A stretch of DNA of 64,000 bases from a virus (taxonomy: Duplodnaviria > Heunggongvirae > Uroviricota > Caudoviricetes), in the IMG/VR virus record IMGVR_UViG_3300028832_000098, positions 81,241 through 145,240 of that record; one strand, 5' to 3'. This document shows positions 5,170-42,708 of the stretch, one piece after another. The position numbers and the translations under genes are program-made. The notes beneath the pieces are model-generated. The model was not told the origin of the DNA, did not search any database, and saw only the letters and a list, made by a program, of their open reading frames with translations. Each line of letters starts with the position of its first letter. Position 1 is the stretch's first letter.

Positions 5170-5214
5170 AATCTTTCTCAAGTTTTTAGATAAAAATGTT
5201 TTAATTCTGTTCTT

Positions 5215-8820: not shown

Positions 8821-10568
8821 TATTTCTTATGCTGGTTATACGTAAAATACTTCGATTGTCGGACTATCGTCGCTGGAAGGTTGTTTATCTCGAAATCAAG
8901 CTTCCATAAGCAATATCTCAGCGACAGCTGGTCCCTGTAAGAACCTTTAAGAATCTCGTTCGCCCACATTTCATTTACTTTATTGACAGCTTTGTCATTC
9001 TTACGAACTAAAAGATTATTCTCATTCAAGCCGTAATTTTGAGGAAATCCTTCATCGCGGTATCTCTTCATTTGAGCGCTTACGACGTCTTTACTATCAA
9101 TACTGAAACTTGTTACAACATCGCCTTCATCATATAGACAAGTCCTCTTGAAATGAAGCGGTATACTGAATATGTTGTTATCACACACATCCGATATGAA
9201 CTTGACTGGGTCGGTATTGATGGTTATGTTGCCGTCGATATACATAGACCACTCGTGTTCAGGCAAATACTTCTGAGGCATTACCTTTATTATCCTTGAC
9301 TGTTTCTTAGCATCAACCGTCTTAAGCTCGTCAGGTATTTTATGTATTTCCCAGACATAGCTTTTCAGATTGTCATCAGAAAAACAGATATACCTGCATG
9401 CCGGTGAAATAACCTGCGGATTCTTCAGGTCGTCATACCCGTTTATTATGACGGTGTAACAGATATTTTTGCTCCTGTTATTATCCTTATAAAGATTCCT
9501 GAACTTTTCTATGTATTTGCCGTACTTGTTGTAGGTATACATTTTATACATATTGGTAATACCGGCGTCAGACCTGTCACCGAAGTAAGTCCTCGCATTC
9601 CCCGTCAAATTAGAAGAAAGTGTCTCGCTTAAGAAATTCATTCTTATTCCTTTTATACCAAGCAATTTATTTTTAGTCAGCTTGATATTATTCTTTGCAA
9701 AATATTTCTTGCACATCTCACCATTCCAAAAATAGAACGTGCCTGTATAATGTATTCCGTCATTTTTGATGCCGTCAGCCTTCAAGCTGTTCCTTATCAT
9801 ATCGACATCTTTCTTAAACGGTCCGCTCTTTGCGCATGAACTTATCGCTCCATAGGAATAATTATCTTCAAGGGTCTTAAGAGCAGAATCCCATCCGTCC
9901 ATCAGACAGCCTTGGTACATCAAGTAACACCAGTATTTTATGTCGAGTATCTTAGAGGCGTCATTATACTTAGCTCCTTTGAAATGAGAATAGAAAATTA
10001 TGCTGTCAGCCTTGCTAACGAAGTCCAGCATTTTTACCCAGGTTTCAAATTCACCTGTATTCTTGCTATTCTTTCTGAATTCTATTTTAACATCGGCTTT
10101 CCCGTTCTTGGTAAGCTCTTTGATTGATTTTGTTATAAAGTCTCTTGCCTCCTTGGTATCGGTATCAAGCGCGACATTGAAATGTATCTCGTCAAACTTA
10201 TTATCGAAGTCCGCAAGCCACAACATTGAAAAATGGAATTTCTCTAAATCGCTTAATACAAGGTTTGACCTGTCTTTAAACCACCAATGAATGAGATGGA
10301 TTTTCTTCTTGGCGTAAGGATATTTCTTCTTAGGCTTTTTATATTTCCAGATTTCAAGATTTTCAAAAGCCTCTATAATTTTTGGTGTAATCTCATCATT
10401 ATTCCAATCAAGTTTTGGATTACGTATGTTTATCGGCAGTAATGATTTTCTGATAGGCATCGCCTTACCAGAATTACCTTTTTGTGATACAACCGCAAAC
10501 TTTTTATTTACTGGCATCACCGGTTTCTGCGGACTTTTCTTAATAAGTATCTTTGCCCTGTATTTCAT
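8820..10568 (-). CDS. Putative glycosyltransferase (DUF616/TOD1-like C-terminal domain) with a basic N-terminal module shared with 11277..12245
   Basis: C-terminal region TVIINGYDDL...CFSDD...KVMPQKYLPEHEW...SMYIDGN resembles the DUF616 glycosyltransferase-like family. The N-terminal 48 aa MKYRAKILIKKSPQKPVMPVNKKFAVVSQKGNSGKAMPIRKSLLPINI is paralogous to the ATP-grasp protein N-terminus. Confidence 0.5.
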   Translation of the reverse strand: MKYRAKILIKKSPQKPVMPVNKKFAVVSQKGNSGKAMPIRKSLLPINIRNPKLDWNNDEITPKIIEAFENLEIWKYKKPKKKYPYAKKKIHLIHWWFKDRSNLVLSDLEKFHFSMLWLADFDNKFDEIHFNVALDTDTKEARDFITKSIKELTKNGKADVKIEFRKNSKNTGEFETWVKMLDFVSKADSIIFYSHFKGAKYNDASKILDIKYWCYLMYQGCLMDGWDSALKTLEDNYSYGAISSCAKSGPFKKDVDMIRNSLKADGIKNDGIHYTGTFYFWNGEMCKKYFAKNNIKLTKNKLLGIKGIRMNFLSETLSSNLTGNARTYFGDRSDAGITNMYKMYTYNKYGKYIEKFRNLYKDNNRSKNICYTVIINGYDDLKNPQVISPACRYICFSDDNLKSYVWEIHKIPDELKTVDAKKQSRIIKVMPQKYLPEHEWSMYIDGNITINTDPVKFISDVCDNNIFSIPLHFKRTCLYDEGDVVTSFSIDSKDVVSAQMKRYRDEGFPQNYGLNENNLLVRKNDKAVNKVNEMWANEILKGSYRDQLSLRYCLWKLDFEINNLPATIVRQSKYFTYNQHKK

Positions 10569-11276: not shown

Positions 11277-12245
11277 TTAAAGTTTCAACATATCTCCTAC
11301 CATTATTTCGTCTTCCTTATTCTTATATCTAAACATTCCAGAACCTGGAGCGAAAGTAAGCTCGCCTAAATAAATTTTACCCTTAATCTCATAAAGGTCG
11401 ACACGTACAAATTTGAAGTCACTTGAAAGAATCTTTGCTATCTCTTTCATCTTCTCGAAACTTTTCGGCTTTGCAAAATCCTTCAAGTCATACTGTATCC
11501 CGTAAAAATTACATACGTTGTCATCCATATCGAAATACAATATGTCTCCATGCCCGTGTCCTGCATTTATCGTGTACAGTTTAGGCTCGCCGTTAAAGCA
11601 CCAAAATTTGTAATCATATAACGATTCCTTCTGCTTCGAGTCAAACATATACTTTTCGGCGTAAGCTTTCCTGACTATATCGTGATAATGCCATTCATAA
11701 TGGTTCTTGACTGCAAAATCTGAATCAAGCCATGACGATAATTTATTTACGGCTTCTGTATAGTCAAGTTTGGATTCATCCTTTACTATAATGTTCATTC
11801 CGCTGCCATGGTTGCATTTCAGAACGAAGCTCTTCGGAAGGCCTTCTAAATCAATGTTCTTACCGTCAAATACCTTCAGAATCGGTATACATATATCCTT
11901 TCCCAATTTTTCTTTACAGTATTCGTGCAAAAGAATCTTATCGGCACATCTCGTTTTCAGTTCCGACAAATCGTTAAGCTTAAGCCATTGTAGCTTATCT
12001 TGTATCGTCTTGGGATTCTTTAGGTCATATTTGCCTTTACACCATTGGATAAATTCCTGTCTTTCATCAAGTACAGGAACTGCTTCAGGTTTAGGGTCAA
12101 CTATGTTTGTCGGCAATGCTGACTTCCTAATAGGCATTGTCTTGTCAGTATTACCTTTCCGTGCCACAACTGCAAACTTATTGTTTGCTGGTATTACCTG
12201 TTTCCTCTGTTTATCCTTAATGAGAATCTTTGACCTGTATTTCAT
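11277..12245 (-). CDS. TupA-like ATP-grasp family protein (amide-bond ligase fold) with shared basic N-terminal module
   Basis: KCNHGSGMNII, YDYKFWCFNGEPKLY, FVRVDLYEIKGKIYLGELTFAPGSG, typical of ATPgrasp_TupA. N-terminus MKYRSKILIKDKQRKQVIPANNKFAVVARKGNTDKTMPIRKSALPTNI. Confidence 0.6.
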   Translation of the reverse strand: MKYRSKILIKDKQRKQVIPANNKFAVVARKGNTDKTMPIRKSALPTNIVDPKPEAVPVLDERQEFIQWCKGKYDLKNPKTIQDKLQWLKLNDLSELKTRCADKILLHEYCKEKLGKDICIPILKVFDGKNIDLEGLPKSFVLKCNHGSGMNIIVKDESKLDYTEAVNKLSSWLDSDFAVKNHYEWHYHDIVRKAYAEKYMFDSKQKESLYDYKFWCFNGEPKLYTINAGHGHGDILYFDMDDNVCNFYGIQYDLKDFAKPKSFEKMKEIAKILSSDFKFVRVDLYEIKGKIYLGELTFAPGSGMFRYKNKEDEIMVGDMLKL

Positions 12246-16466: not shown

Positions 16467-18164
16467 TTACACAAGTTCGATTGATGGGCTAAATGCCATA
16501 TCGAAACGCAAGTATTGCAAATCTGGATAGTGACCAGCAGCAAGAAGTGCGAAACGAGATTTCATTGCACCAGCGTATGCGAATGTCGCAGTTGCTGTCG
16601 TAGTTACTTTCTTAGCCATAATGTATGGTAAGAAAATCAAACCTGGGTCATTAGGTTTAGTGATACGACCAACCAAAACGCCTGTATAGTTTACAGGAAG
16701 GTTCGGGTCTTGGTACAATGTAATGTTGCTTACCTGTCCAATTGGATTAGGAGCATCAGCTACAGATTGAACGTTGTTAGGCAAAGTGATTTGAGTAAGA
16801 CCTGCTACAGATTGTACTGCAGTTACGAACTGAGTAGAACCGATAGCGAAGAATTTACCACCTGACAAACGAGAATCGTGAGAGATGATGTTAGCAGCAT
16901 ACAACAATTTACGCATTACACGTGCTTGAAGTGTCAACGAAGTTTCACCACCGTTGTCAACAACTACTTGTTTGTAATCTTTGTAAGCAGCAGGAATGTC
17001 TTCGTCAGCATCTGCAACTGATTTGAAGTAAGTGTTCAATACTTCGCCTCTGTCTTCAAGACGGTCAGCATGTTTGCCAGCCAATTCCCACATCTTAGTT
17101 AAGATGTACTTGTTAGTAGATTGAGACAATTCGTTAAGAGCATCACCTTCGATTTGAGCGATGATGTCTTGACCGTCAGCCTGTGCATCTTCGATTTGTT
17201 CCCAAGTAGCTGAGAAACCAACTTGGTAAGTTCTTACTTTGTAATCGAAAGAAGTACGTTTAGCACCCAAGAAGTTAACTGTAGTAGCTTCTCCTTCTTC
17301 ACGTTCGAATGGTTCTACACCGAAATTGTTGTCGTAAGGATTCTTTGAACCAGTTTTTTCTACTGAGTTTTCATAGAAGTCACGACCTGTGAATGCAGTG
17401 ATGTGATTTTCTTTCGTATTTACTTGACCGAATACGAAGATACCTTCGAATGCTTCTGCAAGAGTTTGAGCGCCATTGAAACGACGTGCATTGAATTCAC
17501 CCGGTTTAGCGTCTTTTCTTTCAACTAAGAAGATTGGTTTACCAGAGATGAAGCCAAGTTCAACGAATGTCAATTTGAAATCACCTTGTTCAATAACAGG
17601 AGCTTCAGAACCTTCAGCTTCGATAACTTTCTTCAATAATTCTGCACCTTCTTCAGAAGCTTCAACAACTTCAACAAGCAATGGGTCAGCAACTGCATTT
17701 GTAAATTTGTAGCTTACATTACCATCTTTGTCGTAAGTACGCAAGTCACCATTGATACGGCCACCTTCGTAAACAGTATCGTAGAAACGATATTGACCTT
17801 GAGGAGCTGATACCGGTACAACTGCCAACAAGTCAAGAGCGATTGTTTGAGCAGCTGCTTGCATTGCGATAGCTACACTTGAAGCGATTGCATCTGCTGA
17901 ACCGTTACGTACACCAGAGAAACCATTTTCACCACCATTAGGGAATTGAATTGCGCCAGCGCCTTGCATAGTCATTGACGGATTCAATGTTGGTCCCCAG
18001 AAAGCAGATTCCAAAATTGGTTTCATTTTATCGTCGTTATCTTGGATAGCGCAAACTTTAGACATCCAAGCAACTTTTACAGGGTCTTTTATTCCGGTTG
18101 ATTCTTCAATCACCTTGCCCCAATCCTGAAGGGCTTTTACACTATTGATTTCCATTTCTATCAA
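16467..18164 (-). CDS. Major capsid protein, T4 gp23-like (HK97 fold)
   Basis: ...AIASSVAIAMQAAAQTIALDLLAVVPVSAPQGQYRFYDTVY... aligns with T4 gp23 ...NLIAFDICGVQPMNSPTGQVFALRAVY.... Length 565 aa; followed by a terminator; next to the protease-scaffold gene. Confidence 0.8.
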   Translation of the reverse strand: MIEMEINSVKALQDWGKVIEESTGIKDPVKVAWMSKVCAIQDNDDKMKPILESAFWGPTLNPSMTMQGAGAIQFPNGGENGFSGVRNGSADAIASSVAIAMQAAAQTIALDLLAVVPVSAPQGQYRFYDTVYEGGRINGDLRTYDKDGNVSYKFTNAVADPLLVEVVEASEEGAELLKKVIEAEGSEAPVIEQGDFKLTFVELGFISGKPIFLVERKDAKPGEFNARRFNGAQTLAEAFEGIFVFGQVNTKENHITAFTGRDFYENSVEKTGSKNPYDNNFGVEPFEREEGEATTVNFLGAKRTSFDYKVRTYQVGFSATWEQIEDAQADGQDIIAQIEGDALNELSQSTNKYILTKMWELAGKHADRLEDRGEVLNTYFKSVADADEDIPAAYKDYKQVVVDNGGETSLTLQARVMRKLLYAANIISHDSRLSGGKFFAIGSTQFVTAVQSVAGLTQITLPNNVQSVADAPNPIGQVSNITLYQDPNLPVNYTGVLVGRITKPNDPGLIFLPYIMAKKVTTTATATFAYAGAMKSRFALLAAGHYPDLQYLRFDMAFSPSIELV

Positions 18165-18272: not shown

Positions 18273-20228
18273 TTAGAATCCGTATTTCAAACGTCTTTTT
18301 ATCTCTTCAGCGACAGAAGCCTGTACTTTTCCTTCATTACGGACGTTCCTGTTCTGATTCCTCAAAGATTCCGAAAGATATTTTTTCGTATCTTGACTGC
18401 TTACGCTTTCCGTAAGATTCCTTGTCTTCCAGAAACGAACAGCTGCGTCTACACTGCCGATAATATACAATTTGCTTTCGTTAAGGATTTCTTTCTTACG
18501 GTTGTCAGAAAGAGCGCTCCAAGATTCTTTCAAGTAGTCAGGCATAAATTGAATAAGTTTTTCTGCCTCTGTAACAGATTTCTGTTCATTTATGGCTTGA
18601 CTCTGTTGTTCCATCTTATTGTTTGTATCCTTAATAGACGAAGCAATAGAATTTACAGATTCTACAAGGTTTTGAAGTTGAGTGTCTTCAGTACTGCGCT
18701 GTTTACCTTCAACCATCATCTTGATGTCTTCTATAGATTTGTCAGCAGCTTCAACTATGCTCTGCATTTTACCGCTAAGCTTTTTGTTGATTTTAGTCTG
18801 AGACTCAGAGATATATTCTGTATACTTCTGAAGCATCTCAATTTTTTCATTAAGCTGCTTGTTCTTCTGAAGAACCTTATCGAAACTTTCAGAAAGATAT
18901 TTTGTATATCCTTCAAGCATTTCAGCCGTTACCGTGTTCTTTTCAAGATGTTCAGACAAATATGCTGTATAACGTTCCATATCCTTTGATGTGACAACGT
19001 CTTTATTCATCTTTTTAAGATGTTCTGACAGATAGCCTGTATATTTTTCCATAGCATCGCTTGTAACTACGTTTTTATTCATAGCTGCAAGATGTTCAGA
19101 AAGATATGCAGTATACTTTTCTACGTCTTCGCTTGTAACGACACCTTTTTTCAATTTATTCAAGTATTCAGACAAATACTTAGTGTATTTATCCATGTCG
19201 CGTCTTGTTACGACATCTTGAGGGTTGCCTAACTTCTGTTCCATATAATAATTATTAAAGTTGATTCCACTTACAAAGAAATATGTCTTTCCGTCTTGTA
19301 CGGTTGGACCGTCAGTAATGTTCGCACCAATATTGTTCAGACATTGTTCAACAGCGTTATTGATTATGCCTGTGAATTCACCTGTTACATTCTTTCCGAA
19401 TTCAACCTCAACATGGTCGTTTACGAAATTAACTATTGCTGTATCAGAATTTGATTCAACAGAACAGATACCCATATCGCTGTCGACTGTTATGTCCATT
19501 TTGCCAGGATTCATACCGAGCGCCTTACGGAATTCACCTATAATAGACTTGCCGTCTATTTTCGGTTTTTCATTTCCGCTTTCAGGTTCTTTCTGACCTT
19601 CATCCTGCAATTCGTACAAATCGGCGCCATCGAAAGACTCGAGTATTACACGGCTCTTCATTTTGGCATTCTTCTGTGAACTCAAAGCATTAACGGCATT
19701 TATAAGAGCGTCAGAACCCGCGCCCTTGCTTTCGTTAACTGCATGGAGAACTGCATTCTCAAAACCTGGTTCAGCAACAAGGTCATAAGTTATAAGTTCT
19801 TCGACAACGACATGATTGTCAGGTGTCAAAGTACCGATAGCCCTTGAAGATATATGAAGAGGCACTTTATTTTCTATAAGAGTCTTCGCGATTCTTCCTG
19901 AAGGAGTATTTAATAATTTGATACGACCCTTTATAGAATCTGTCTTTTGGTCATAGCTTAGACTTTCAACTATATGAGAAACGTTCTGATAAGACACATA
20001 CCTCATATTAGCGGGATGTTCAAGCTCACCGAGAAGGTCATGATTCTTAATCTTTTCCGTAAGAGCACCAAGCTTCTCAAGGAAATTCTTAGAGTCATAT
20101 ATCCTGTTATTACGATTCTTCACGTTAAACGTCGTGAAGCATCCTTCAAGAACAATATCGCCGCCGTCCGCAGAACTTGAGCAGACACCGTCACTTAAAC
20201 TCTCAACGATATATTTCTTATTTTCCAT
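18273..20228 (-). CDS. Prohead core protease (T4 gp21-like) fused to a scaffold-like coiled-coil domain with tandem repeats
   Basis: N-terminal LGELEHPANM...TPSGRIAKTLIENKVPLHISSRAIG matches gp21 LGEHD...TPAGQLVESLLKEGVLLEASSRAWA. The C-terminal ~350 aa are coiled-coil with 6 repeats of VVTS[ED]D[VM]EKYT[AG]YLSEHL...MNK. Confidence 0.75.
   Translation of the reverse strand: MENKKYIVESLSDGVCSSSADGGDIVLEGCFTTFNVKNRNNRIYDSKNFLEKLGALTEKIKNHDLLGELEHPANMRYVSYQNVSHIVESLSYDQKTDSIKGRIKLLNTPSGRIAKTLIENKVPLHISSRAIGTLTPDNHVVVEELITYDLVAEPGFENAVLHAVNESKGAGSDALINAVNALSSQKNAKMKSRVILESFDGADLYELQDEGQKEPESGNEKPKIDGKSIIGEFRKALGMNPGKMDITVDSDMGICSVESNSDTAIVNFVNDHVEVEFGKNVTGEFTGIINNAVEQCLNNIGANITDGPTVQDGKTYFFVSGINFNNYYMEQKLGNPQDVVTRRDMDKYTKYLSEYLNKLKKGVVTSEDVEKYTAYLSEHLAAMNKNVVTSDAMEKYTGYLSEHLKKMNKDVVTSKDMERYTAYLSEHLEKNTVTAEMLEGYTKYLSESFDKVLQKNKQLNEKIEMLQKYTEYISESQTKINKKLSGKMQSIVEAADKSIEDIKMMVEGKQRSTEDTQLQNLVESVNSIASSIKDTNNKMEQQSQAINEQKSVTEAEKLIQFMPDYLKESWSALSDNRKKEILNESKLYIIGSVDAAVRFWKTRNLTESVSSQDTKKYLSESLRNQNRNVRNEGKVQASVAEEIKRRLKYGF
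18820..19195. repeat. Coding tandem repeats (~72 bp) encoding the YTxYLSEHL scaffold repeats
   Basis: Repeated ...gtaacgacatc...ttttccat...cttgt... units visible in the DNA. Confidence 0.7.
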
Positions 20229-20368: not shown

Positions 20369-20662
20369 TGTCAGAAATTTTACCGACAATTCGTATGTGA
20401 CATTTTCAGTCGTATTTACAAAACGTTTCATCTGGTCGTTGATGTCAGCCTCGACCATATCTTCATTATAATTTGTCTTAAACAGGTAGTCGCTCAGATT
20501 GCATCCGTAATCAGGCATATTCAGCAATTCACCTCTATTTGTAAAAAACAAGACATTCATCTGTTGGATTAACTCCGCGATTTCGGAGTTAACCTCAACA
20601 GCTGAATTATCTTCAGTCACCAAATAATTAGGAGGCAATATGTTGAAATCCCTTAATCCCAT
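20282..20662 (-). CDS. hypothetical protein (126 aa) between the sheath and protease genes
   Basis: ORF; its last 29 codons are duplicated at 116..200. Confidence 0.45.
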   Translation of the reverse strand: MGLRDFNILPPNYLVTEDNSAVEVNSEIAELIQQMNVLFFTNRGELLNMPDYGCNLSDYLFKTNYNEDMVEADINDQMKRFVNTTENVTYELSVKFLTWEKEVCMEVDVDIKNLKTNEGTVMRYYA

Positions 20663-23226
20663 TATTCGCCAAATGACAATGTAGATATTACACCAGTCTT
20701 GTAGATAGTTGCTCTTTGAGTAATTTTCTCAAGACCTTTAGCAAGTTCCAATCCGACATCGATAACGCCAGAGTTTGCATCAATGACTTCATTGGTGTTA
20801 TTCGATTTGTTCATTACTGTACTGAAGTCATAGATACCACCTGCTCTCTTTATGTCTTCAAGGAAAGAATCGACGATACTCTTGATTTCGCGACGGGTAT
20901 TGTCATCGTTATGATATACACCGAATATGTATTTCTGCAAAATGCTTTCTATACTGAGAACGATATATATCAAAGTATCAGTACAGTGCAAAGAACTCAA
21001 TGAAGACTTTGGAGACTGTTTAGCAGTAACGTTACCGTAAATAACTGCCTCATAGTTGTCTATCTTCACGATACTGTTGAATCCGAATGGTTCAAGCCAA
21101 TCGCGGTTGTCATCAGTTATCGTAGACTCAACACCTTTAACGCCGTCACCGAGAACACCAAGTTCAGTACCTGCTACCAAGTACCAAGGGAAATCACCTT
21201 TCTTATAGAAAAGATTCGAAACAGCTGCTGAAGGCGGAACGAATTTTTCTATAGAGTTATCGAGTATCTTTACATAAGGATAGAAGTAACCGCCGAATGA
21301 AGCACCCTGCTCTTCTTTAGGTAAAGAATACTTGAACTGAGAAGGGATGTTAGGATTACCTCCCTTAGAAATATATTCTGCAGAAACGATTCCGTTCTTG
21401 CCCCGGAATACAGGTCCTGGTTTTTCAGCAGACTTAAACTCTTTTACAGAAGGTCCGTTTATAATCGCAAGAGAAAGTCTCTTTTGACAAATCTCTGTAA
21501 ACACTTTCTTAGATTCAGGACTAATACCGTTACCGAATGTATCGACAAGATACCTGAACTGTAAGATGCGTTTATCTACAAGCGATTTAAACAAACTGTA
21601 TTCAGGTTTGTTAACATCATCCCTATCATAGTTTTCTTCAAGAATAGAAAGAATGTTCTCTTGTTGTTTCTCGACAGCAAAAGGTTCTTGCTGTTCACCG
21701 GTACCAGGCATGTGACGAGCTTCAAGCTTGAATCCGTTAAGGCATATCCATTGATAGCTCTTTACTGCCTCATCAACTTGTTTGGCTACACATACATTAT
21801 TCTCTTCATCAATGAAAGGTAATGAATCATAGCAAATAACTTTTTTGAATACTTGCTCAGAACTTTCTTCAACAGAGGTCTCTACCATTTCAACATTATA
21901 TACTCTTGTCAACCTGCCGACAGCAACGTCAGATACAAAATAATCGCCTGTCTTAATGTTTTCATCTTTATCAACATAGATTTCATTAGGATTAAGACTT
22001 TCATTCGTATATGCCTTTACTTTCCTATACAAACCATTGCTTTCGCCGTATGCAGATACTTTACCAGAGTATGACAACATGTTAACCTCTATTCCTTCAG
22101 AATCTTCTATTTCAGATTCAGGGTCAATGAGCTTCTGTACAAGTTTATGACCGATAATATCTATCTTTTCATCAATAATATCTTGATTGTCATATCCTGA
22201 CTTAATTTCAGCATTCTCTACCAATTCTGTGTTTTCATAGCAGATAACACCTGTATAGTTCGTATCGTCATTGATAAGCTTTTGTATCCAGACATTGATA
22301 CCAAGCTTATTCACGAAATTAGGAATAAGACAACCGGTATAAGTTGCAAGAACTTTTACAGACTGAATCTTCAAGAAATCCTGAAGTTTGTCAGCTTTGA
22401 AACCGTTTTCATCGAAATAGTTTTGGTATGTGATGTCTGAGGTAAATCTGTAATATTGCTTATCTTTTTCCACAGGAATACTTATTTCAGTAAGGCACGG
22501 TGTTCCGTCATCAAACTGAGTTCCTGTATGTTCAGGCTTAATATCGCATTTCGGACCGAAATCACCTTGAACGATATAAACGTCTACGAAGTAATCAGAG
22601 ACAATAGAAGTTGGGTTAAGGTATGAAGGAATTTCTTCATCACCATACCAGTCCTTAACTGTCATGTTATAACCCATACGGTTGTATTCCGAAGACCTCT
22701 TTACAAGAATGCTTACAGGTTTCTTGTTGATATTTACGAAGTTCAATATCTGAGGTTTTACCTCTTGAGGGTCGAAATACTTAGATACAGTATAACCGTA
22801 AGTTTCAGCATCAGGAATCCAGAATACAGATGTGTCATAGCATCCAGATAATGGCAATGACATTATATTATTGTTTGCCACATCAGAAGCAACAGATATG
22901 CCTGCGTTAGGAACCCTGTCTTTACTTTCTTCTGTCTTCAAAAGATTAAGAACAAGTATTGAACTTGTATTCAATGCCATTTTAGCCATTCTGTGAAAAT
23001 AGCTACCTGACTTCTCAAGACTTCTGTCAATGTCACCGAACATCTTTACGAAGTCCGTATAATTATTGACTTGTACAGGCCTGTTAACAGGACCTTGCTT
23101 AGAAAAGCCTATTAGCAACCTTTGTCTCGTAGGACTAACTGGCATGTCGTTAGACTGCTGGCTCTTATCTATAATAAGAGTGTAAACTCCGGCAGAATTA
23201 TGCTTTAAAGATGAATCTATTGCCAT
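20662..23226 (-). CDS. Tail sheath protein (T4 gp18-like)
   Basis: N-terminal ...YTDFVKMFGD (compare gp18 VDLVNTFGQ). Mid-region PPSAAVSNLF...WYLVAGTELG, and C-terminal ...DDNTRREIKSIVDSFLEDIKRAGGIYDF matching gp18 ...NNAFTRSSFRTETAQYLQGNKALGGIYEY. TATAAATA lies 33 nt upstream. Confidence 0.75.
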   Translation of the reverse strand: MAIDSSLKHNSAGVYTLIIDKSQQSNDMPVSPTRQRLLIGFSKQGPVNRPVQVNNYTDFVKMFGDIDRSLEKSGSYFHRMAKMALNTSSILVLNLLKTEESKDRVPNAGISVASDVANNNIMSLPLSGCYDTSVFWIPDAETYGYTVSKYFDPQEVKPQILNFVNINKKPVSILVKRSSEYNRMGYNMTVKDWYGDEEIPSYLNPTSIVSDYFVDVYIVQGDFGPKCDIKPEHTGTQFDDGTPCLTEISIPVEKDKQYYRFTSDITYQNYFDENGFKADKLQDFLKIQSVKVLATYTGCLIPNFVNKLGINVWIQKLINDDTNYTGVICYENTELVENAEIKSGYDNQDIIDEKIDIIGHKLVQKLIDPESEIEDSEGIEVNMLSYSGKVSAYGESNGLYRKVKAYTNESLNPNEIYVDKDENIKTGDYFVSDVAVGRLTRVYNVEMVETSVEESSEQVFKKVICYDSLPFIDEENNVCVAKQVDEAVKSYQWICLNGFKLEARHMPGTGEQQEPFAVEKQQENILSILEENYDRDDVNKPEYSLFKSLVDKRILQFRYLVDTFGNGISPESKKVFTEICQKRLSLAIINGPSVKEFKSAEKPGPVFRGKNGIVSAEYISKGGNPNIPSQFKYSLPKEEQGASFGGYFYPYVKILDNSIEKFVPPSAAVSNLFYKKGDFPWYLVAGTELGVLGDGVKGVESTITDDNRDWLEPFGFNSIVKIDNYEAVIYGNVTAKQSPKSSLSSLHCTDTLIYIVLSIESILQKYIFGVYHNDDNTRREIKSIVDSFLEDIKRAGGIYDFSTVMNKSNNTNEVIDANSGVIDVGLELAKGLEKITQRATIYKTGVISTLSFGE

Positions 23227-36233: not shown

Positions 36234-37937
36234 TTAAACTGCAGGTTCACCGCCTTCTGGAGCGCCGCCTGCTTCAGGAGCTCCGCCGCTTATGTCCATG
36301 CTGCCTCCCATATCGCCTCCGCCGCCCATGTCCATGCCGCCTCCCATATCCATTCCTCCGCCACCCATATCGCCACCTCCCATATCCATTCCACCACCGC
36401 CCATATCACCTCCCATAGAAGGTTGTTGCTCAGTAGCAGCCTTTTCTGCTTCTTCTTTACGTTTCTTAGCTTTCTCCTTCTTAATCCTCTCATTTTCTTC
36501 AAGCTCTGCAGGCGTGAACAACGAGAATTTCTTCATTAAGAAGTCAGGGTCGAAATATGGTGTTTGGTTTCCTTGTTCGTCAGTTACCTGTATCGAATTA
36601 AGAATACCTGAAATAGCATTGATATTCTGCTGTATGATTGTAAGCTTCTTAATTTGAAGATAGACTGAGTCTGACTGGTATACGAGGTGCAAAGATGCAA
36701 GGAAAGAAATGTCATCCTTTATTTCGTTGTCAAGACAAATCTGAATATAGATAGGCTTGATAAAAAGCATCTGGTAAATATTCCGAAGCCTTGCTATAAA
36801 CCTGCTGAACCTGATTTCTTCCCTATGTATTCCTTCGACGTTCATCGTATATTGGGCGCCAGCCTGTCTGTCAAACCTTGCAAGAGGTACTTTCGTTATA
36901 TCGTGGAACTTATCGGCGAAATACGTCAACGGCTGTATATTCGACAAGTCTGGTCCACCGTTATTGCTCAAGACCGAAACTTCAGGCTTGCTGCCTTCAG
37001 TCATGGCGAAGAACATCTGCTTATAGAACGGCAACATCGGATGTCCGTTGGTCTTTATCTCGCCTGTCGACCAGTTGAAGTCAACTTGCTCAGCCTGGTC
37101 TGCTGCAACTTGCGCGAGTCGTTGCTTTCCCTTTTGTGGCGACACCGCTCCGACAGGTACGACATAATTCATTTTCAAAGAGGAGTTGACGACAGAGAAT
37201 ATAATTCTCGTCGATTCCATAATCCTCAATGTATTGAATGAACGTATAAGCCTTGAAACATAGCTGAGGTCGTTATCTTCATCTGAATAAGATATGATAA
37301 CAATCTCTTGCTCAGTCAACGTAAGGTTTATGACATTCCCCGTCGTTAAGTCATTAGTGCTGACCTTATACAGTATCTTGCCGTCTTTGTCACATATCTT
37401 TTCGACATTCGCTGGGTCAAGCTCTACAAAGTCAATTATGTTTTTCTGTTTTTCGTCATATATTATACGGTATGCAAGCTTACCATCGACAATCCATCTC
37501 CTGAAAAGCCTCCAGACATCATCTGTATTCATAAGACCGTAGAGATACCTGAACTTCATAAAGTATTCAGGCAGTTTCTCCTTCACTTTTTCAGAAATCT
37601 TGTCAGCCGTTGATTCTATATATGCGAAATCACGGTCTTGCTCTGTCGAACAAATACTCTCGTCACAAACAATATCAAGTATTTTGTCTATGTCGTCTTC
37701 TGCGGCGTATTTCCTACAAGTCTCCCTCTGTACTGAATAACTTGCAGGCTGCGAGCCTCCAATGCCTTCAGCGCGGTGCCAGCTGTTCTGCGGAACAGAT
37801 ATTACCTGCGAAAGCGATGTCATATTGTCAGGCGAATAGGCCCTACCGGTAAACCTGACATTCGCGAGCTTCTTACGCAATGTCACTTGGCCTCCGTACA
37901 TTCCGGTACCTATACCTCTGTTAATAAATCCTGCCAT
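36234..37937 (-). CDS. Portal protein (T4 gp20-like) with a C-terminal Gly/Met/Asp low-complexity tail
   Basis: [23 protein letters not shown] matches gp20 [44 protein letters not shown] matches gp20 [24 protein letters not shown]. C-terminus ([11 protein letters not shown])n. Confidence 0.7.
   Translation of the reverse strand: [567 protein letters not shown]
36300..36425. repeat. Coding tandem repeats (ccatatcca[ct]tcc[tg]ccgcc[ac]cc units) encoding the GGGMDMGGG tail of the portal
   Basis: Visible 12-15 bp periodicity. Confidence 0.7.
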
Positions 37938-39057: not shown

Positions 39058-39157
39058 AATATCAGTTTCTTTTATTTATGTCATTTCTGTGAACTACCTA
39101 CAAACTAAAGAATTCTATGTTCTAAATCCTATTAAAATTATTATCAATTATACGAAT

Positions 39158-40417
39158 TTATTTATAAAGTTTAGGAAGTCCGTATAGATTCTTAAACTTT
39201 ACAGGCTGGAACAACCAGCCTCTATTGACTATCTCACCTATGTAAGACTCGTCAACTACTTTTCTCATGATGTTCAGTGCTCCGTTGACATCTGCATTCA
39301 GCACTTTTCCTACGGACGACTTGAACAGTCCACGTTTGATGCGCTTCCCTAAATATGCTGCGTGTTTGCATATTTCCTCAAAAGAAAGAGCATCACACTT
39401 GCTCGTGTAACTTTCCTCATTTGTCTTGAAGACTATGCCAACTTTTTCACATTTGTACCGAAGATAATTCAGAAACCTTCTATAAGGAATGTAAACAAAA
39501 GTCTGGTTATTCTTGTGTCCAAGCTCAATGGAGTCCTTCCATTGTTCGTTGTAACCTACAACTAAGTTTCCGATTCCTTGTTTTACTAAATTATCTACAA
39601 TATGTTTACTTACCTTGTGAAATAAATCCTGTAATTTCTTATCCCTCCTTTCGTATAGTTTCGTTATCTTTCTGCTTGTATTTTTGTCTTGACTTTTCTT
39701 TACTGCCGATTTAAGTCTGGACAACTCCTTGTTGAATCCTTGGTTTATTGATTTAATCTGACATCCCGAATAAATAATCGGTTTAGTAAAGTCATTCACT
39801 AAAGTTACGAAATTAGCTACTCCTAAGTCAATTGAAGCATATCTTTCAGAATCTAATTTCAAATGAGTGTCTTGTACAGTATAAACTATCTCGCATTCAA
39901 GAACCTCCGCACGTCTCTTTGGATTTATACGTACTTGATTAAAGCTTTTCAAAAGCTCTCCATATTTTTCATATTGTGGTATATTTATGTAAGTGTTTTT
40001 GTCAAAGTACACTCTTCCGTTTTTAATAGAACAACTTTGATTTGGAAAAGTTATTTGACGGTACAACCCACGATTCCATTCAGGTGGTTGTGGAACTCCT
40101 TTGAATTTGTTAGGTTGTAATTTATACTCCTTCAACGCACTAAAATATCCCTTGTAATTCTTCTCCACTTGCATCAAGTTCTGCTGGGCAACCTGTGCTT
40201 TCAGTAACCTGTAGTTTATATCACCGTTAAGATTGACTTTTGTCTTTAGGATTTCATTGAGTCTCTTATAAGACAAAAATCCTTCACCTTTTATAAAAGA
40301 TTGTCTTTCTTCATAGATTGCCTGATTGTATAAACATTTGGAAACGGAGCACAACTGTACAAGTTTACGTCTTGTCTCAGCATTAGTATGTACTATGAAT
40401 TTATAAACGTATCGCAT
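39158..40417 (-). CDS. tnpB: TnpB / IS200-IS605 OrfB family RNA-guided nuclease (second, divergent copy; tnpB-only element)
   Basis: 419 aa. RuvC-I SIDLGVANF, RuvC-III LNADVNGALNIMRK. The canonical CxxC...CxxC zinc finger is not evident (SKCDALSFEEICKH). No tnpA remnant seen nearby. Confidence 0.85.
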   Translation of the reverse strand: MRYVYKFIVHTNAETRRKLVQLCSVSKCLYNQAIYEERQSFIKGEGFLSYKRLNEILKTKVNLNGDINYRLLKAQVAQQNLMQVEKNYKGYFSALKEYKLQPNKFKGVPQPPEWNRGLYRQITFPNQSCSIKNGRVYFDKNTYINIPQYEKYGELLKSFNQVRINPKRRAEVLECEIVYTVQDTHLKLDSERYASIDLGVANFVTLVNDFTKPIIYSGCQIKSINQGFNKELSRLKSAVKKSQDKNTSRKITKLYERRDKKLQDLFHKVSKHIVDNLVKQGIGNLVVGYNEQWKDSIELGHKNNQTFVYIPYRRFLNYLRYKCEKVGIVFKTNEESYTSKCDALSFEEICKHAAYLGKRIKRGLFKSSVGKVLNADVNGALNIMRKVVDESYIGEIVNRGWLFQPVKFKNLYGLPKLYK

Positions 40418-40586
40418 ATACTAACTTATCTCGTTTTCCAAAATCTTCTTTTAATATCTTTAATACATCTTTACTTTTCATATCTGCAAATACATAGTTT
40501 GTATTTAGAAAAGTCAAATGTTTTTACAAAAATTTATTATTTTCTATATCATATAGAAAACAACAATTTACGGTATACTTCCGATT

Positions 40587-41444
40587 TTAGCAGCATGCTA
40601 TCCAGTTTCTATAAGCTGTCGTCAAATGATTTCTGCTGGGTGCGTCGTCTCCGGCGTGAGGTATGCAGTATGTATTCGCAAACATCCTGATAAGTACTGT
40701 CACGCCTTTGTTAACGTATCCAAAAGTATAGCCGCCGAGTAACTGGCAATCTATCTTGTCACTCTCGACGGCTGCCTTATTTCCTTGTGTATATGTGCTG
40801 ATTACGTTTCGTCTTACTTCGAGCCGATTTTTTTTTTGGCCGTACTTGATGTACCTTACTACGGTGCTTTTTGCCATGCCTGATTCCGACGCAAGCTTGT
40901 TAAGCGTTATGCCGGTATCCTTATATTCTTTGCTGTCAACGCCGTATGCCTTCAGTCTCGAATCAATTTTTTTGAGGGTCTTTATATCTTTTACTTGTTC
41001 TCGCTGTTGTAGTAAGTCTTTGATGTGTTGCTTCTTGCGTATGGGATTCGTGATGATGAAATATGATAGTTCCTTTTCTACGAGTGTCAGTGTCAGTTCA
41101 TTGTCTTTCAAGTCTTCGCAAATCTTAAAGCATCTGTCGTCGTGTTTGCTGCTTACGCTGTGTATCAATAGTTTGTCGCCTGTGTCTTCGATGTATCCTT
41201 TCGTTATGCAGTTGTCAGTCCATTTCCTTGCGGCGTTGTAAGATGATTGAATGATTGTCGATATTTTCTTGTAGTTCCTTCCCGAGACGTTGTATTTGTT
41301 CGAATTCTTTTTTCCTTGTTTTCCTTTGTACGATGTATATGGTATCGAGGTATATCCTTTCTTGACAAGTATAGATACGAGAGCTATGCACATTCTCTCA
41401 GTTCTGTCTTTCAGTAAGTTAATATTGCTGTTTCTAATTTTCAT
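40587..41444 (-). CDS. hypothetical DNA-binding protein (C-terminal HTH)
   Basis: HTH-like TLNKLASESGMAKSTVVRYIKYGQ; 285 aa; adjacent to the origin-like region and tnpB. Confidence 0.4.
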   Translation of the reverse strand: MKIRNSNINLLKDRTERMCIALVSILVKKGYTSIPYTSYKGKQGKKNSNKYNVSGRNYKKISTIIQSSYNAARKWTDNCITKGYIEDTGDKLLIHSVSSKHDDRCFKICEDLKDNELTLTLVEKELSYFIITNPIRKKQHIKDLLQQREQVKDIKTLKKIDSRLKAYGVDSKEYKDTGITLNKLASESGMAKSTVVRYIKYGQKKNRLEVRRNVISTYTQGNKAAVESDKIDCQLLGGYTFGYVNKGVTVLIRMFANTYCIPHAGDDAPSRNHLTTAYRNWIACC

Positions 41445-42198
41445 TCGTTAGAATTAAATTCTCTAAGTGCAAATAAAAGCCAAAAAAATTTAAGTTGTAT
41501 GCTTTCTATCAAAAAAAAATCCCTGTTTTTCAACAGGGACCCAGAGAATTCGTTACCCAAGAGCTTGGGTTCCAATGAAAATTACAGTTACAAATATAGT
41601 ATTATTTTTTTAAGTTGTACACGTTTTCCTAAAAAATTTTATATTTTTCTGAAATTTTTTCCAATTTTATTTTTTCATATCTGATTTTTATCTATTTTTG
41701 TCCTTTTCCCCAATTCTGAAAACCGTAGTGATTTCACGAATGAAACTCTATTATATACCAGGAAATAATACTAAGAAATACTTAAAGAATTCTTAATTTT
41801 CTTTGGCTTGGGCACGTGTATGACGTGCCCGAACGCATTATGCACGTAAGTGCGTTGTGCGTTCGCCTGTGTTTATGCACGTATATCCGTGTAACGTCCG
41901 TGTCCGCGTGTGACGTACGTCATGTATGCCATATATGCACGTGTGTCATATACGTGGGTGATGTACGTCCGCGGTCGCGTCTGTGTCGTCGTGTGATGTA
42001 TATACAGATGCGAATTCAATAATTAGTCATTGGAGGATGTCTTCTGACTGACTGTTTGCCTGAAGGCTTAACACTTTTTATTTCAATTTCTTACAAAAGC
42101 CTTAGTAGGTAAACATCAGATGTTGTTAATAATTCTGTTGGAAACGTTGTTTTTTATATGTTGGTTTAAACATAAATAGAAAAAGAAAATTTGTTGGG
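41445..42198. promoter_or_regulatory. Strand-switch intergenic region: candidate replication origin and divergent promoter region
   Basis: AT-rich tract with T-runs (41580-41800). Perfect hairpins at 41520..41537, 41554..41569 and 41810..41830. Locally GC-rich 200-bp block (41810-42010) with three TTATGCACG / ATATGCACG 9-mers, which are 7/9 to the DnaA box TTATCCACA (41838, 41873, 41933). Palindrome TGACGTACGTCA at 41911. Genes diverge on both sides. Confidence 0.5.
41510..41537 (-). terminator. Perfect intrinsic terminator on the minus strand (CCCTGTT-GAAA-AACAGGG plus T9)
   Basis: 7-bp GC-containing stem, tetraloop and 9 T on the minus strand; no annotated minus-strand gene upstream of it. 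Confidence 0.5.
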
Positions 42199-42708
42199 AT
42201 GAAGTTAGAAAAGATGACGAAAGAAGAGCTCATCGATGAAGTGATTTCATTGAGGAGCAACCTGGAAAAGAAAAAGACTCTTATTAAAAGGATGAAGCGC
42301 TCTATGAAAGAGCAGTCAGCGAAGACGATAGTGCGGCAGATGTACGGCGGGGATTATGCCGACGTAGTTTTCACGGCGACAGAAAGGATACTCGGAATAT
42401 CAAGGGACAAATTTCTATGCGGCCTCAGGTCGGCGCAGTTCGTCCGCTGCAAGACCATTGCCGGATATATTCTCAGGGAAACCTCGAGTATGACGCTGTA
42501 CGAGTGCAGCGACGCCCTCAGGGTAGACCATTCAAGTGTCTGCTATTATTCAAGGGTAGTACGCCAGGCATACGACATGTACGACAAGGACAAGGTCAGC
42601 CGCACCCTCATCGATGAGATTGAGATGGTGAAGAAGGAGGTTGCGAAGATTCTTCGGGACAGAGGAAATCCGGAAACCATAAATAAGGTAGGAATAAAAA
42701 TATCTTAG
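42199..42708 (+). CDS. DnaA domain IV-like (Bac_DnaA_C) helix-turn-helix protein
   Basis: RSAQFVRCKTIAGYILRETSSMTLYECSDALRVDHSSVCYYSRVV versus DnaA-C R..VRARQIAMYLIRELT..SLPEIG..FGGRDHTTVIHA.RKI. Confidence 0.6.
   Translation: MKLEKMTKEELIDEVISLRSNLEKKKTLIKRMKRSMKEQSAKTIVRQMYGGDYADVVFTATERILGISRDKFLCGLRSAQFVRCKTIAGYILRETSSMTLYECSDALRVDHSSVCYYSRVVRQAYDMYDKDKVSRTLIDEIEMVKKEVAKILRDRGNPETINKVGIKIS

What the first reader, a model, noticed from the sequence alone, without database searches (positions are those of the whole stretch)
41445..42708. Candidate replication origin at the strand-switch: DnaA-box-like iterons, AT-rich tract, hairpins and an adjacent DnaA-domain-IV-like gene
All upstream genes point left and all downstream genes point right. 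The 750-bp gap contains a locally GC-rich 200-bp block, unlike the rest of the genome, built from ACGT-core repeats. Three copies of (T)TATGCACG are 7/9 matches to the DnaA box TTATCCACA. There is a perfect palindrome TGACGTACGTCA, an AT-rich T-tract region resembling a DNA unwinding element, and three perfect hairpins (41520, 41554, 41810). The first gene to the right encodes a 169-aa protein whose C-terminal half aligns to the DnaA DNA-binding domain IV (IAGYILRE...VDHSSV versus IAMYLxRE...RDHTTV). A perfect minus-strand intrinsic terminator at 41510..41537 has no protein gene to terminate, so a short leftward non-coding transcript, possibly a primer or regulatory RNA, may originate in the repeat block.
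Basis: partly seen in the sequence, partly recalled or inferred. Interest (0 to 1): 0.65.

Follow-up and report, generated by a model that had tools for sequence, protein, structure and literature searches.

The report
Conserved hairpin-rich gap, jumbo phage
The longest non-coding gap in this piece of a ~236-kb uncultured phage genome is a real, conserved control region containing an unusual hairpin-forming DNA island next to a gene for a DnaA-type DNA-binding domain, but the evidence offered for calling it the replication origin (DnaA boxes, GC skew) does not hold up, so an origin remains only one plausible reading.

Summary
The sequence features are real. A 754-bp gap (41445-42198) lies between divergent genes. 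It holds a terminated minus-strand hairpin unit, an AT tract of 15% GC, and a 200-bp island (41805-42005) that is unique in the window.

It is 80% purine-pyrimidine alternating (window mean 48%, about 7 SD), has 20 times the ACGT density, and folds as a hairpin array (z -5).

The 169-aa protein is a true DnaA domain IV homologue by profile and by predicted fold. It has no AAA+ module and sits 28 nt behind a T4-type late promoter (CATAAATA).

Most of the gap is 3-5% diverged between strains, against 21% at four-fold sites, so it is functional.

The origin arguments are weak:
- There is no canonical DnaA box.
- Only two of the three TATGCACG copies are conserved, and the 12-nt palindrome is not conserved.
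- The GC-skew switch comes entirely from codon position 1; four-fold sites show none.
- The genome (~236 kb) has another strand switch 29 kb away.

Best reading, at about 35%: a cis-acting, protein-bound, structure-prone DNA site that may serve as an origin. Close rivals are a purely transcriptional control region and a structured RNA.

The parts
40587..41444 (-). 285-aa DNA-binding protein gene. It is the first leftward gene and has no late-promoter motif. The N-terminal part has winged-helix topology, and a second helix-turn-helix lies near residues 176-203.
   Evidence: ORF. Weak HTH_IclR and phrog_4779 hits. AF2 model has low confidence (pLDDT 47) with H-E-H-H-E-E topology at residues 13-93. 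Foldseek returns only generic winged-helix regulators, none significant. Homologue P0011 is 45% identical.
41470..41516 (-). Promoter-like module, copy 1, upstream of the 285-aa gene. On the minus strand it reads TACAACTTAAA, then 11 nt, then TTTATTTG.
   Evidence: 28-nt direct repeat D4 at 41489-41516 and 41609-41636. The 11-mer TACAACTTAAA is exact only at these two places in the window. The promoter role is inferred.
41508..41584 (-). Candidate small RNA or 5' attenuator of about 75-80 nt. It has a hairpin at 41555-41570, an intrinsic terminator stem at 41517-41542, and a run of 9 T.
   Evidence: Terminator scan. RNA fold shows two hairpins, -24.2 kcal/mol, z -1.77. No Rfam match. Divergence is 3% against 21% neutral. 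The start point is inferred from the TATATTTG motif.
41591..41636 (-). Promoter-like module, copy 2. On the minus strand it reads TACAACTTAAA, then 10 nt, then TATATTTG (41598-41591).
   Evidence: The function is inferred.
41600..41804 (.). AT-rich tract full of T runs (T 68, A 29 in the first 121 nt), with two 30-nt repeats about 49 nt apart. It is conserved in sequence.
   Evidence: 15% GC at 41600-41700, second lowest in the window and among the five least stable duplex stretches. Repeat D3. Divergence is 3-5% against 21% at four-fold sites.
41810..41830 (.). Hairpin or cruciform 1: GGGCACGT-GTATG-ACGTGCCC. The stem is invariant. The loop is exactly inverted (CATAC) in haplotype L001.
41831..41865 (.). 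Imperfect 16-bp hairpin 2, carrying TTATGCACGT copy 1 (41838-41847). It is identical in all haplotypes.
   Evidence: Inverted repeat I15. Folds. Alignment.
41873..41882 (+). TTATGCACGT copy 2, in the same orientation as copy 1 and 35 nt away. It is identical in all haplotypes.
   Evidence: The core TTATNCAC occurs 9 times in the window, and these two copies are the only close pair.
41896..41950 (.). Hypervariable purine-pyrimidine segment. It contains the 12-nt palindrome 41911-41922 and the third TATGCACG copy at 41934, neither of which is conserved. The other haplotypes carry 10- and 11-nt indels here.
   Evidence: 12.7% substitutions plus 21 indel columns.
41951..42005 (.). GT-rich purine-pyrimidine segment, moderately conserved. 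In the 42%-identical relative L003 the matching position holds a (TGTATGTC)n repeat.
42006..42120 (+). Variable spacer or leader with small hairpins. The hairpin at 42039-42048 shows one compensatory stem change (T-A against C-G) together with an inverted loop.
   Evidence: Divergence is 13-14%.
42143..42178 (+). Late-promoter region: AACGTTGTTTTTTATAT (42143-42159) followed by CATAAATA (42171-42178), which lies 28 nt before the ATG.
   Evidence: YATAAATA lies in sense orientation 21-56 nt upstream of about 20 genes, including portal and sheath. Divergence is 1-5%.
42199..42708 (+). 169-aa protein: a long N-terminal helix, most likely a coiled-coil oligomerisation element, followed by a DnaA domain IV-type DNA-binding domain. 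There is no AAA+ domain.
   Evidence: Pfam Bac_DnaA_C at 5.2e-5, below the curated cut-off. A family profile against the PDB hits only DnaA, 3e-13 to 2e-9. AF2 pLDDT is 81, and Foldseek's best matches are the DnaA DNA-binding domains 3pvp and 1j1v with TM 0.8. R77, D110 and H111 are invariant.

Best explanation
The gap is a compound, selectively constrained control region of a ~236-kb T4/Lak-related jumbo myophage. Its centre is a cis-acting DNA element rather than a coding or merely spacer sequence.

Layout, left to right:
1. A non-late promoter for a winged-helix protein gene.
2. A duplicated copy of that promoter, driving a short two-hairpin RNA that ends at an intrinsic terminator.
3. A conserved T-tract AT region.
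4. A 200-bp structure-prone island. It has two invariant inverted repeats that present two TTATGCACGT motifs, followed by a fast-changing purine-pyrimidine repeat.
5. A late promoter for the DnaA-domain-IV protein gene.

Proposed mechanism (inferred):
- The island is bound by the site-specific DNA-binding proteins encoded on its two flanks.
- Its hairpins extrude, or its alternating tracts flip towards Z-form, under the negative supercoiling that divergent transcription builds up between the two units.
- This helps to open the neighbouring AT tract.

The most likely use of such a site is initiation of phage DNA replication. In that case the domain-IV protein acts as an origin-binding accessory or regulator, not as a DnaA-type unwinding initiator.

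Shown here: the anatomy, the sequence constraint, the protein fold and the promoter motif. Inferred: protein binding, DNA structural transitions and any replication role.
For: - This is the longest non-coding stretch in the window.
- Most of it diverges 3-5% between haplotypes, while four-fold sites on both flanks diverge 17-26%.
- The island is unique in 64 kb: purine-pyrimidine alternation 0.80 against 0.484 +/- 0.046, with the next best at 0.625.
- ACGT is enriched 20-fold in the island.
- The island folds as a hairpin array on both strands, with z from -3.1 to -5.6. This fits DNA-level palindromes.
- Exact inversion of the hairpin-1 loop, plus a second inverted loop with a compensatory stem change, show that the inverted repeats are maintained and interact in vivo.
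- A relative with only 42-45% protein identity has an RY repeat at the matching position.
- An AT tract at the window's extreme of low stability lies next to the island.
- No flanking gene needs a promoter inside the island: the late promoter lies at 42171 and the leftward modules at 41470-41636.
- The adjacent protein is a true DnaA domain IV with the DNA-contact arginine and the D-H-(S/T) motif conserved.
- Two conserved TTATNCAC cores lie 35 nt apart (local P about 4e-4).
- The gene polarity is of the origin (divergent) type.
Against: - There is no direct evidence of replication initiation.
- The GC skew carries no information on replication.
- Other strand switches exist in the genome.
- There is no AAA+ or other recognisable initiator, helicase loader or replication gene next to the gap.
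- The domain-IV gene has a late-type promoter.
- There are only two conserved copies of the motif and no helically phased iteron array.
- The pair of motifs is only marginal after window-wide correction (about 0.12).
- Part of the island is hypervariable.
- Flanking HTH genes next to their own sites are equally typical of plain transcriptional autoregulation.
Confidence: 0.35

Rival explanations
1. This is a purely transcriptional control region. The island and AT tract hold operators and upstream elements for the divergent units. The 285-aa winged-helix protein and the domain-IV protein act as transcription factors, for example an early-to-late switch or autoregulation. DnaA itself represses its own promoter through DnaA boxes. 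Alternatively, the domain-IV protein may act in trans as a mimic that competes with host DnaA.
For: - Two DNA-binding protein genes flank the gap.
- The two flanks have different promoter types: a late motif on the right and a different duplicated module on the left.
- The sequence-level constraint across 450 nt is more typical of dense protein sites than of an unwinding element.
- There is no initiator or replication gene nearby.
Against: - The recognisable promoter motifs lie outside the island, 170-330 nt away from it.
- A hypervariable, indel-prone repeat and extreme purine-pyrimidine alternation are not usual for operators.
- Only two conserved copies of any motif are present.
Confidence: 0.3
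2. The island, with or without the following spacer, is transcribed as a structured plus-strand RNA. It would be either a long 5' leader of the late operon or an independent non-coding RNA. A GC-rich island in an AT-rich intergenic region is a classic signature of structured RNA.
For: - Plus-strand RNA folding gives z -5.0 for the island and -7.1 for 41800-42198.
- Many predicted pairs are G-U and exist only on the plus strand.
- The stems of hairpins 1 and 2 are invariant.
- One compensatory pair lies at 42040/42047.
Against: - No Rfam family matches, even at E=10.
- The covariation term is not supportive: +0.9 and +0.34, with several broken pairs.
- The minus strand and the DNA parameters fold almost as significantly.
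- No promoter motif was recognised upstream, and no terminator downstream.
- 10- and 11-nt indels and a loop inversion are tolerated.
- The late promoter lies downstream of the island, so the late mRNA need not include it.
Confidence: 0.15
3. The central island is a DNA-processing site of another kind. It could be a packaging-initiation (pac) or concatemer-processing site, or a recombination hot spot that feeds recombination-dependent replication as in T4-like phages. GT-rich, palindromic, locally hypervariable DNA suits both.
For: - The island is strand-asymmetric and GT-rich (G 61, T 62, A 33, C 45).
- It shows palindromes, loop inversions and indels.
- It lies between structural and late modules, 4 kb from the portal gene.
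- Assembly of a relative breaks inside the repeat.
Against: - No terminase gene was recognised next to it.
- Contigs of the same phage run through the site without a break.
- There is no evidence on DNA ends.
Confidence: 0.08
4. The island is a largely neutral, mutation-driven palindrome and microsatellite patch in a spacer. Only the promoters and the terminator in the gap are functional.
For: - The middle of the island and the following spacer are the most variable parts (12.7-14%, with indels).
- Substitutions are nearly all transitions, many at CpG.
- The relative carries a simple (TGTATGTC)n repeat.
Against: - Even the variable parts diverge less than four-fold sites (13% against 21%).
- The 90-nt core 41805-41895 has one or two substitutions plus a single inversion event.
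- The feature is kept at the same place across 42-45% protein identity.
- Folding z-scores are far beyond composition-matched shuffles.
Confidence: 0.07

Closest known systems
DnaA domain IV (Pfam Bac_DnaA_C; structures 1J1V of E. coli and 3PVP of M. tuberculosis bound to DnaA-box DNA)
   Same: - The 169-aa protein matches by profile, with only DnaA chains found (3e-13 to 2e-9).
- It also matches by predicted fold (TM 0.78-0.80, rmsd 2.3-2.9 A).
- By my own alignment to the E. coli numbering, the equivalents of R399, D433 and H434 are invariant in the small family and T435 is serine.
   Different: - It is a stand-alone domain with a long N-terminal helix.
- Domains I to III are missing, so there is no ATPase, no oligomer filament and no single-strand DNA binding.
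- P423 and H439 equivalents are not conserved.
- The Pfam score (23.6) is below the curated cut-off (31.5).
- The gene is driven by a late-type promoter.
Bacterial oriC and the DnaA-assisted iteron origins of plasmids and phages such as P1, F, RK2 and lambda. This comparison rests on my own knowledge of those systems.
   Same: - Composite layout: an AT-rich tract next to a repeat cluster.
- Genes for DNA-binding proteins lie adjacent.
- Transcription is divergent.
- Two motifs match the DnaA-box core TTATNCAC.
   Different: - There is no cluster of canonical boxes.
- There is no phased array of 17-22-bp iterons.
- No recognisable Rep or AAA+ initiator is present.
- Neutral-site skew gives no support.
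T4 oriF/oriG-type origins: a promoter plus a downstream unwinding element, primed by a persistent R-loop RNA. This comparison rests on my own knowledge.
   Same: - The phage is T4-related: gp13-like, sheath, portal and protease genes, and a TATAAATA-type late promoter.
- A short non-coding transcription unit lies beside an AT tract.
   Different: - The candidate RNA runs away from the AT tract and ends at a strong terminator.
- No MotA-type middle promoter was recognised.
- No RNA data are available.
Cruciform- and Z-DNA-prone sequences between divergent promoters, and small inversions of hairpin loops flanked by inverted repeats as described for chloroplast spacers. Both comparisons rest on my own knowledge.
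   Same: - Extreme purine-pyrimidine alternation, including a 17-nt perfect run at 41930-41946.
- Perfect short inverted repeats.
- A location where divergent transcription concentrates negative supercoils.
- Exact loop flip between strains.
   Different: - The tracts are mixed CG/TG/TA and interrupted every 8-17 nt, so Z-forming potential is moderate.
- No structural probing exists.

Membership tests
DnaA-dependent (oriC-type) origin | A cluster of DnaA boxes (TTATCCACA or TTATNCACA) | tested here: not met
   There are 0 exact TTATCCACA and none within 1 mismatch in the gap. TTATNCACA with up to 1 mismatch gives 73 in the window against 86 expected, with 3 in the gap. Two TTATGCACG copies lie 35 nt apart, which is only marginal window-wide.
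DnaA-dependent (oriC-type) origin | An AT-rich unwinding element next to the boxes | tested here: inconclusive
   41600-41700 is 15% GC and second lowest in the window. Four other intergenic stretches are as unstable. No 13-mer-type repeats were recognised.
DnaA-dependent (oriC-type) origin | A mutational GC-skew switch at the site | tested here: not met
   Cumulative skew has its minimum at about 41 kb. The coding-strand skew is +0.42/+0.47 at codon position 1, about 0.015 at position 3 and -0.03 at four-fold sites on both sides. In the related huge phage LR756500, oppositely oriented genes flip the local skew.
DnaA initiator protein | AAA+ ATPase domain III (with domains I and II) | tested here: not met
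   The protein is 169 aa. Residues 1-50 form one long helix, and no Bac_DnaA or AAA hit is found.
DnaA initiator protein | Domain IV helix-turn-helix with the basic-loop arginine and the DHTTV recognition helix | tested here: met
   Profile and fold matches. R77, D110 and H111 are invariant, and the motif reads VDHSSV.
Iteron (Rep-dependent) origin | Three or more direct repeats of 17-22 bp in helical phase | tested here: not met
   The best families have 2-4 copies at 64-83% identity with irregular spacing. TRF finds only a 13-nt unit repeated 2.6 times. Only two motif copies are conserved between haplotypes.
Iteron (Rep-dependent) origin | An adjacent gene for a two-winged-helix Rep initiator | tested here: inconclusive
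   The 285-aa neighbour has winged-helix-like N-terminal topology and a second HTH. The model is poor (pLDDT 47), and no Rep family or structure matches.
Intrinsic terminator or small RNA unit | A GC-containing stem followed by a U run, with no upstream ORF | tested here: met
   Stem 41542-41517 plus a run of 9 T on the minus strand. There are no credible ORFs between it and the island: the ATG of the 61-aa plus-strand ORF is lost in L001 and L002, and L002 also has a frameshift.
Intrinsic terminator or small RNA unit | Its own promoter and a detectable transcript | not testable with these tools
   Only a duplicated promoter-like module is seen. No expression data are available.
Known structured RNA families (Rfam 15) | A covariance-model match | tested here: not met
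   No hit at gathering score in the window. Only chance-level hits (E>6) in 41300-42300.
T4-type late promoter | TATAAATA-like -10 element shortly upstream of late genes | tested here: met
   Of 33 YATAAATA occurrences, about 20 lie in sense orientation 21-56 nt before a start codon (portal, sheath and others). One lies at 42171, 28 nt before the 169-aa gene, and none precedes the 285-aa gene. Recognition by a gp55-like factor was not tested.
Z-DNA or cruciform-prone DNA | Long alternating purine-pyrimidine tracts and perfect inverted repeats | tested here: met
   Alternation is 0.80 over 200 nt (about 7 SD), and the longest perfect run in the window is here. The single-strand DNA fold gives z -5.55. 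Formation in vivo is not testable here.

The most novel reading that the evidence does not exclude
A jumbo phage uses a stand-alone, oligomerising DnaA-domain-IV protein that binds DnaA-box-like TTATGCACGT motifs displayed on extruded hairpins of a Z-prone island. This would make a supercoil-triggered replication origin, or a host-DnaA-hijacking site, that works without any AAA+ initiator of its own.
Probability: 0.1. Interest if true: 0.7.

Novelty: new variant of a known kind. Interest (0 to 1): 0.4.

Why it matters
Origins and control regions of uncultured jumbo and megaphages are inferred almost only from GC skew. This case shows that the skew can be produced wholly by codon position 1, so it marks gene orientation rather than replication.

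The locus also gives a concrete, testable candidate: a conserved hairpin and alternating-purine-pyrimidine island flanked by two DNA-binding protein genes. One of these is a truncated DnaA-type domain, whose role in phages has not been studied as far as I could find.

If the island is an origin, or a supercoil-sensing switch, it would be a handle for replicating or engineering this phage group.

Tried and rejected
1. Canonical DnaA boxes: background level.
2. GC skew as origin evidence: a coding artefact.
3. Comparative genomics:
   - The 169-aa, 639-aa and 285-aa proteins have only near-identical relatives plus one relative at 42-45% identity on 1-2-kb contigs.
   - IMG/VR and JGI scans found no relatives.
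   - The nearest annotated phage, LR756500 (portal 37% identical), is not syntenic.
4. Cross-phage recurrence of the motif:
   - TTATGCACGT pairs occur in 16 IMG/VR stretches, including real intergenic arrays of TATGCACGTARGTA.
   - A scrambled 10-mer of the same composition gives 9 stretches.
   - None of those loci encodes a domain-IV relative.
   - I treat this as chance, apart from a 14-nt identity with window copy 1.
5. The (TGTATGTC)n repeat of the relative, searched in IMG/VR: only unrelated microsatellites.
6. A protein-coding reading of the island or the AT tract: rejected by frame-breaking indels and a lost start codon.
7. A link to the nearby TnpB element: rejected. The element spans 39084-40551 and is absent from L001, which still has the island.
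8. A 250-300-nt minus-strand RNA: no folding signal.
9. Structure of the 285-aa protein: too poor to classify.
11. Context of other stand-alone DnaA_C proteins: uninformative short contigs.
12. The 18-nt inverted repeat 41477-41494 / 41792-41809 as mobile-element ends: by my own rough estimate about 0.5 such pairs are expected by chance.
Full report
WHAT THE WINDOW IS

The window carries T4-like myovirus genes on the minus strand: portal at 36234-37937, sheath at 20662-23226, prohead protease at 18273-20228 and major capsid protein at 16467-18164. A gp13-like neck protein lies on the plus strand. The portal's nearest relatives are uncultured huge phages: LR756500 at 37% identity and the Prevotella Lak megaphages at 30%. 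Identical genes lie on metagenome contigs of 235,706 and 238,631 nt, and window coordinates are offset by about 180 nt from the start of the first. The source is therefore a ~236-kb jumbo phage. No tRNA and no Rfam family is present in the window.

CHECK OF THE OBSERVATION

The gap 41445-42198 (754 nt) separates a leftward 285-aa gene from a rightward 169-aa gene. It is the longest non-coding stretch in the window.

- Terminator: stem 41517-41542 plus a run of 9 T on the minus strand.
- Hairpins at 41555-41570 and 41810-41830.
- Three TATGCACG copies and the palindrome at 41911.
- An AT tract of 15% GC, second lowest in the window.

The block 41805-42005 has 52.7% GC. This is not the window's maximum, because part of the portal gene reaches 61%. 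The block does rank first for CpG, ACGT and CGTG. ACGT reaches 50 per kb inside it against 2.5 per kb outside.

- 80% of the dinucleotide steps in the block alternate purine and pyrimidine. The window mean is 48.4 +/- 4.6% and the next best place reaches 62.5%.
- The block folds into a hairpin array far better than dinucleotide-matched shuffles. The z-scores are -5.55 (DNA, plus strand), -3.13 (DNA, minus), -5.02 (RNA, plus) and -4.36 (RNA, minus).

THE PROTEIN

Pfam gives Bac_DnaA_C at E 5.2e-5, below the curated cut-off. NCBIfam DnaA models hit only their C-terminal ends.

An exhaustive HMMER search found one 42%-identical relative (P0002, itself annotated Bac_DnaA_C) and several stand-alone or tandem DnaA_C proteins. 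A profile of six such proteins finds only DnaA chains in the PDB, at 3e-13 to 2e-9.

The AlphaFold model (pLDDT 81) has a 58-residue N-terminal helix followed by a helical domain. That domain's best structural matches are the DnaA DNA-binding domains 3PVP and 1J1V, with target TM 0.78-0.80. R77, D110 and H111 are invariant. By my alignment to E. coli DnaA numbering they correspond to R399, D433 and H434, and T435 becomes serine.

The domain IV claim is therefore correct. The protein has no AAA+ module, so it cannot be a DnaA-type unwinding initiator.

THE TWO MAIN PROPS OF THE ORIGIN READING

DnaA boxes:
- There is no exact TTATCCACA in 64 kb and none within one mismatch in the gap.
- Against the relaxed consensus TTATNCACA with one mismatch, the window has 73 matches where shuffles give 86.
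- The core TTATNCAC occurs nine times. Two of these lie 35 nt apart in the block, which is locally unlikely (4e-4) but about 0.12 after allowing for all positions.

GC skew:
- The cumulative minimum does fall at about 41 kb.
- The skew is +0.42/+0.47 at codon position 1, negative at position 2, about 0.015 at position 3 and -0.03 at four-fold sites, identically on both sides.
- The reversal is therefore a consequence of gene orientation, not an independent replication signal.
- In LR756500, genes lying against the local direction flip the skew in the same way.
- The plus-strand block ends in a convergent switch only about 29 kb to the right (L005 position 19159). The switch under study is therefore one of several.

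TRANSCRIPTION SIGNALS

YATAAATA, the T4 late-promoter word (my own knowledge), occurs 33 times. About 20 copies lie in sense orientation 21-56 nt before a start codon, including those of the portal and sheath genes. One lies at 42171-42178, 28 nt before the 169-aa gene, preceded by AACGTTGTTTTTTATAT. That second word also recurs before other genes. The domain-IV gene therefore looks like a late gene.

The 285-aa gene has no such motif. Instead a 28-nt module is duplicated at 41489-41516 and 41609-41636. Its 11-mer is exact only at these two places. Each copy is followed at 10-11 nt by T(A/T)TATTTG on the minus strand. Copy 1 precedes the 285-aa gene. Copy 2 would start a 75-80-nt RNA with two hairpins that ends at the terminator. 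This could be a small RNA or an attenuator leader. These roles are inferred.

No recognisable promoter lies inside the island.

STRAIN COMPARISON

Three haplotypes are available. Four-fold sites of genes on both flanks differ by 17-26%.

Divergence along the gap:
- 41445-41804: 3-5%.
- Island core 41805-41895: one or two substitutions, plus one event in which the hairpin-1 loop GTATG is replaced by its exact reverse complement CATAC.
- 41896-41950: 12.7%, with 10- and 11-nt indels. This segment removes the 12-nt palindrome and the third motif copy in the other haplotypes.
- 41951-42005: 5-7%.
- 42006-42120: 13-14%.
- Late-promoter region: 1-5%.

Outside the flipped loop, all 16 two-allele substitutions in the island are transitions, so the alternation stays at 0.80 in every haplotype. 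Transitions also dominate in the flanks, so this is only marginal evidence of selection on alternation. A second small hairpin at 42039-42048 shows an inverted loop with a compensatory T-A against C-G stem change. RNAalifold finds no net covariation support.

The one distant relative (L003, domain-IV protein 42% identical) ends in (TGTATGTC)n, followed by GAATTCA and an AT-rich leader. This aligns with the right end of the window's island. The feature is therefore kept in place while its sequence drifts.

INTERPRETATION

The gap is functional over most of its length, and the island is a real, unusual element. Its strand-symmetric folding, loop flips, tolerance of indels and lack of an internal promoter favour a DNA-level element over an RNA. 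Its position between divergent units, beside a very unstable AT tract and between two DNA-binding protein genes, fits an origin-like or other DNA-opening site. I rank that first at about 0.35.

A purely transcriptional control region is nearly as likely (0.30). That reading is helped by the late promoter of the domain-IV gene and by the absence of any initiator. The other readings are a structured plus-strand RNA (0.15), a packaging or recombination site (0.08) and a mostly neutral repeat patch (0.07).

WHAT LED NOWHERE

- Searches for relatives in IMG/VR and JGI contigs found nothing.
- The motif-pair search found intergenic arrays of the same 10-mer in unrelated phage contigs. A scrambled control gave a similar count, and none of those loci has a domain-IV gene.
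- The 285-aa protein could not be classified beyond a winged-helix-like N-terminal part.

VERDICT

The locus is a moderately interesting new variant of a phage control or origin region. Its most useful by-product is the demonstration that GC skew here is a codon-position-1 effect.

Noticed in passing
window 39084-40551 (TnpB ORF 39158-40417, minus strand); also 650-1846 (plus strand): There are two TnpB (IS605 OrfB plus Cas12f-like TNB) genes without TnpA. The element at 39084-40551 is absent from haplotype L001. It sits directly against the late-promoter word of the 197-aa gene, so it is a recent insertion in a jumbo phage. No omega-RNA was looked for.
   Followed up: partly
whole window: GATC (0 observed, 187 expected) and CTAG (0 observed, 69 expected) are completely absent from 64 kb. 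GGCC (ratio 0.34) and CATG (ratio 0.52) are also depleted. This looks like strong restriction avoidance.
   Followed up: no
window, e.g. 23263, 24775, 28535, 28942, 35735, 37968, 39080 (minus strand); 42171, 42678, 45469, 47109, 47877, 52063, 59188, 60676 (plus strand): YATAAATA, the T4-type late-promoter word, lies 21-56 nt upstream of about 20 genes. A second recurrent upstream word, GTTGTTTTTTATATAAAA, precedes several genes.
   Followed up: partly
whole window, coding regions: The GC skew of both gene blocks resides only in codon position 1 (+0.42/+0.47). Position 3 and four-fold sites have none. Residual non-coding DNA does show -0.15 and +0.14. This is a caution for skew-based origin calls in huge phages.
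   Followed up: yes
window 41574-41597 against 41422-41445: The 5' part of the candidate small RNA is complementary (18 of 24 positions, with an 11-nt perfect run over the AUG) to the translation start region of the neighbouring 285-aa gene's mRNA (inverted repeat I2). The sequence is AT-rich, so this may be chance.
   Followed up: no
L018 3367-3560, L022 7269-7430, L020 384-535, L030 5452-5630, L023 1078-1200; L015 6081-6150: Unrelated AT-rich IMG/VR phage contigs carry intergenic arrays of 4-6 copies of TATGCACGTARGTA. L030 has a perfect DnaA box beside its array. Another phage group has four tandem 21-nt repeats of TTATGCACGTCTCCCAAAATT. Window copy 1 shares the 14-mer TTATGCACGTAAGT. The overall hit count is near that of a scrambled control.
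   Followed up: partly
L003 1-45: The contig of the only distant relative ends inside a (TGTATGTC)n repeat at the position matching the island. In that relative an extra 129-aa gene sits between the repeat and the domain-IV gene.
   Followed up: partly
window 3262-5181, 7795-8820, 8820-10568, 11277-12245 (minus strand): An NAD-dependent DNA ligase gene and a cluster of sugar-modifying genes (epimerase/dehydratase, glycosyltransferase, TupA-like ATP-grasp) lie inside the leftward block.
   Followed up: no
L005 19159-20861 (about 9 kb beyond the window's right end): There is a convergent strand switch. The rightward block that starts at 42199 is only about 29 kb long and is followed by a 1187-aa minus-strand gene.
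   Followed up: partly
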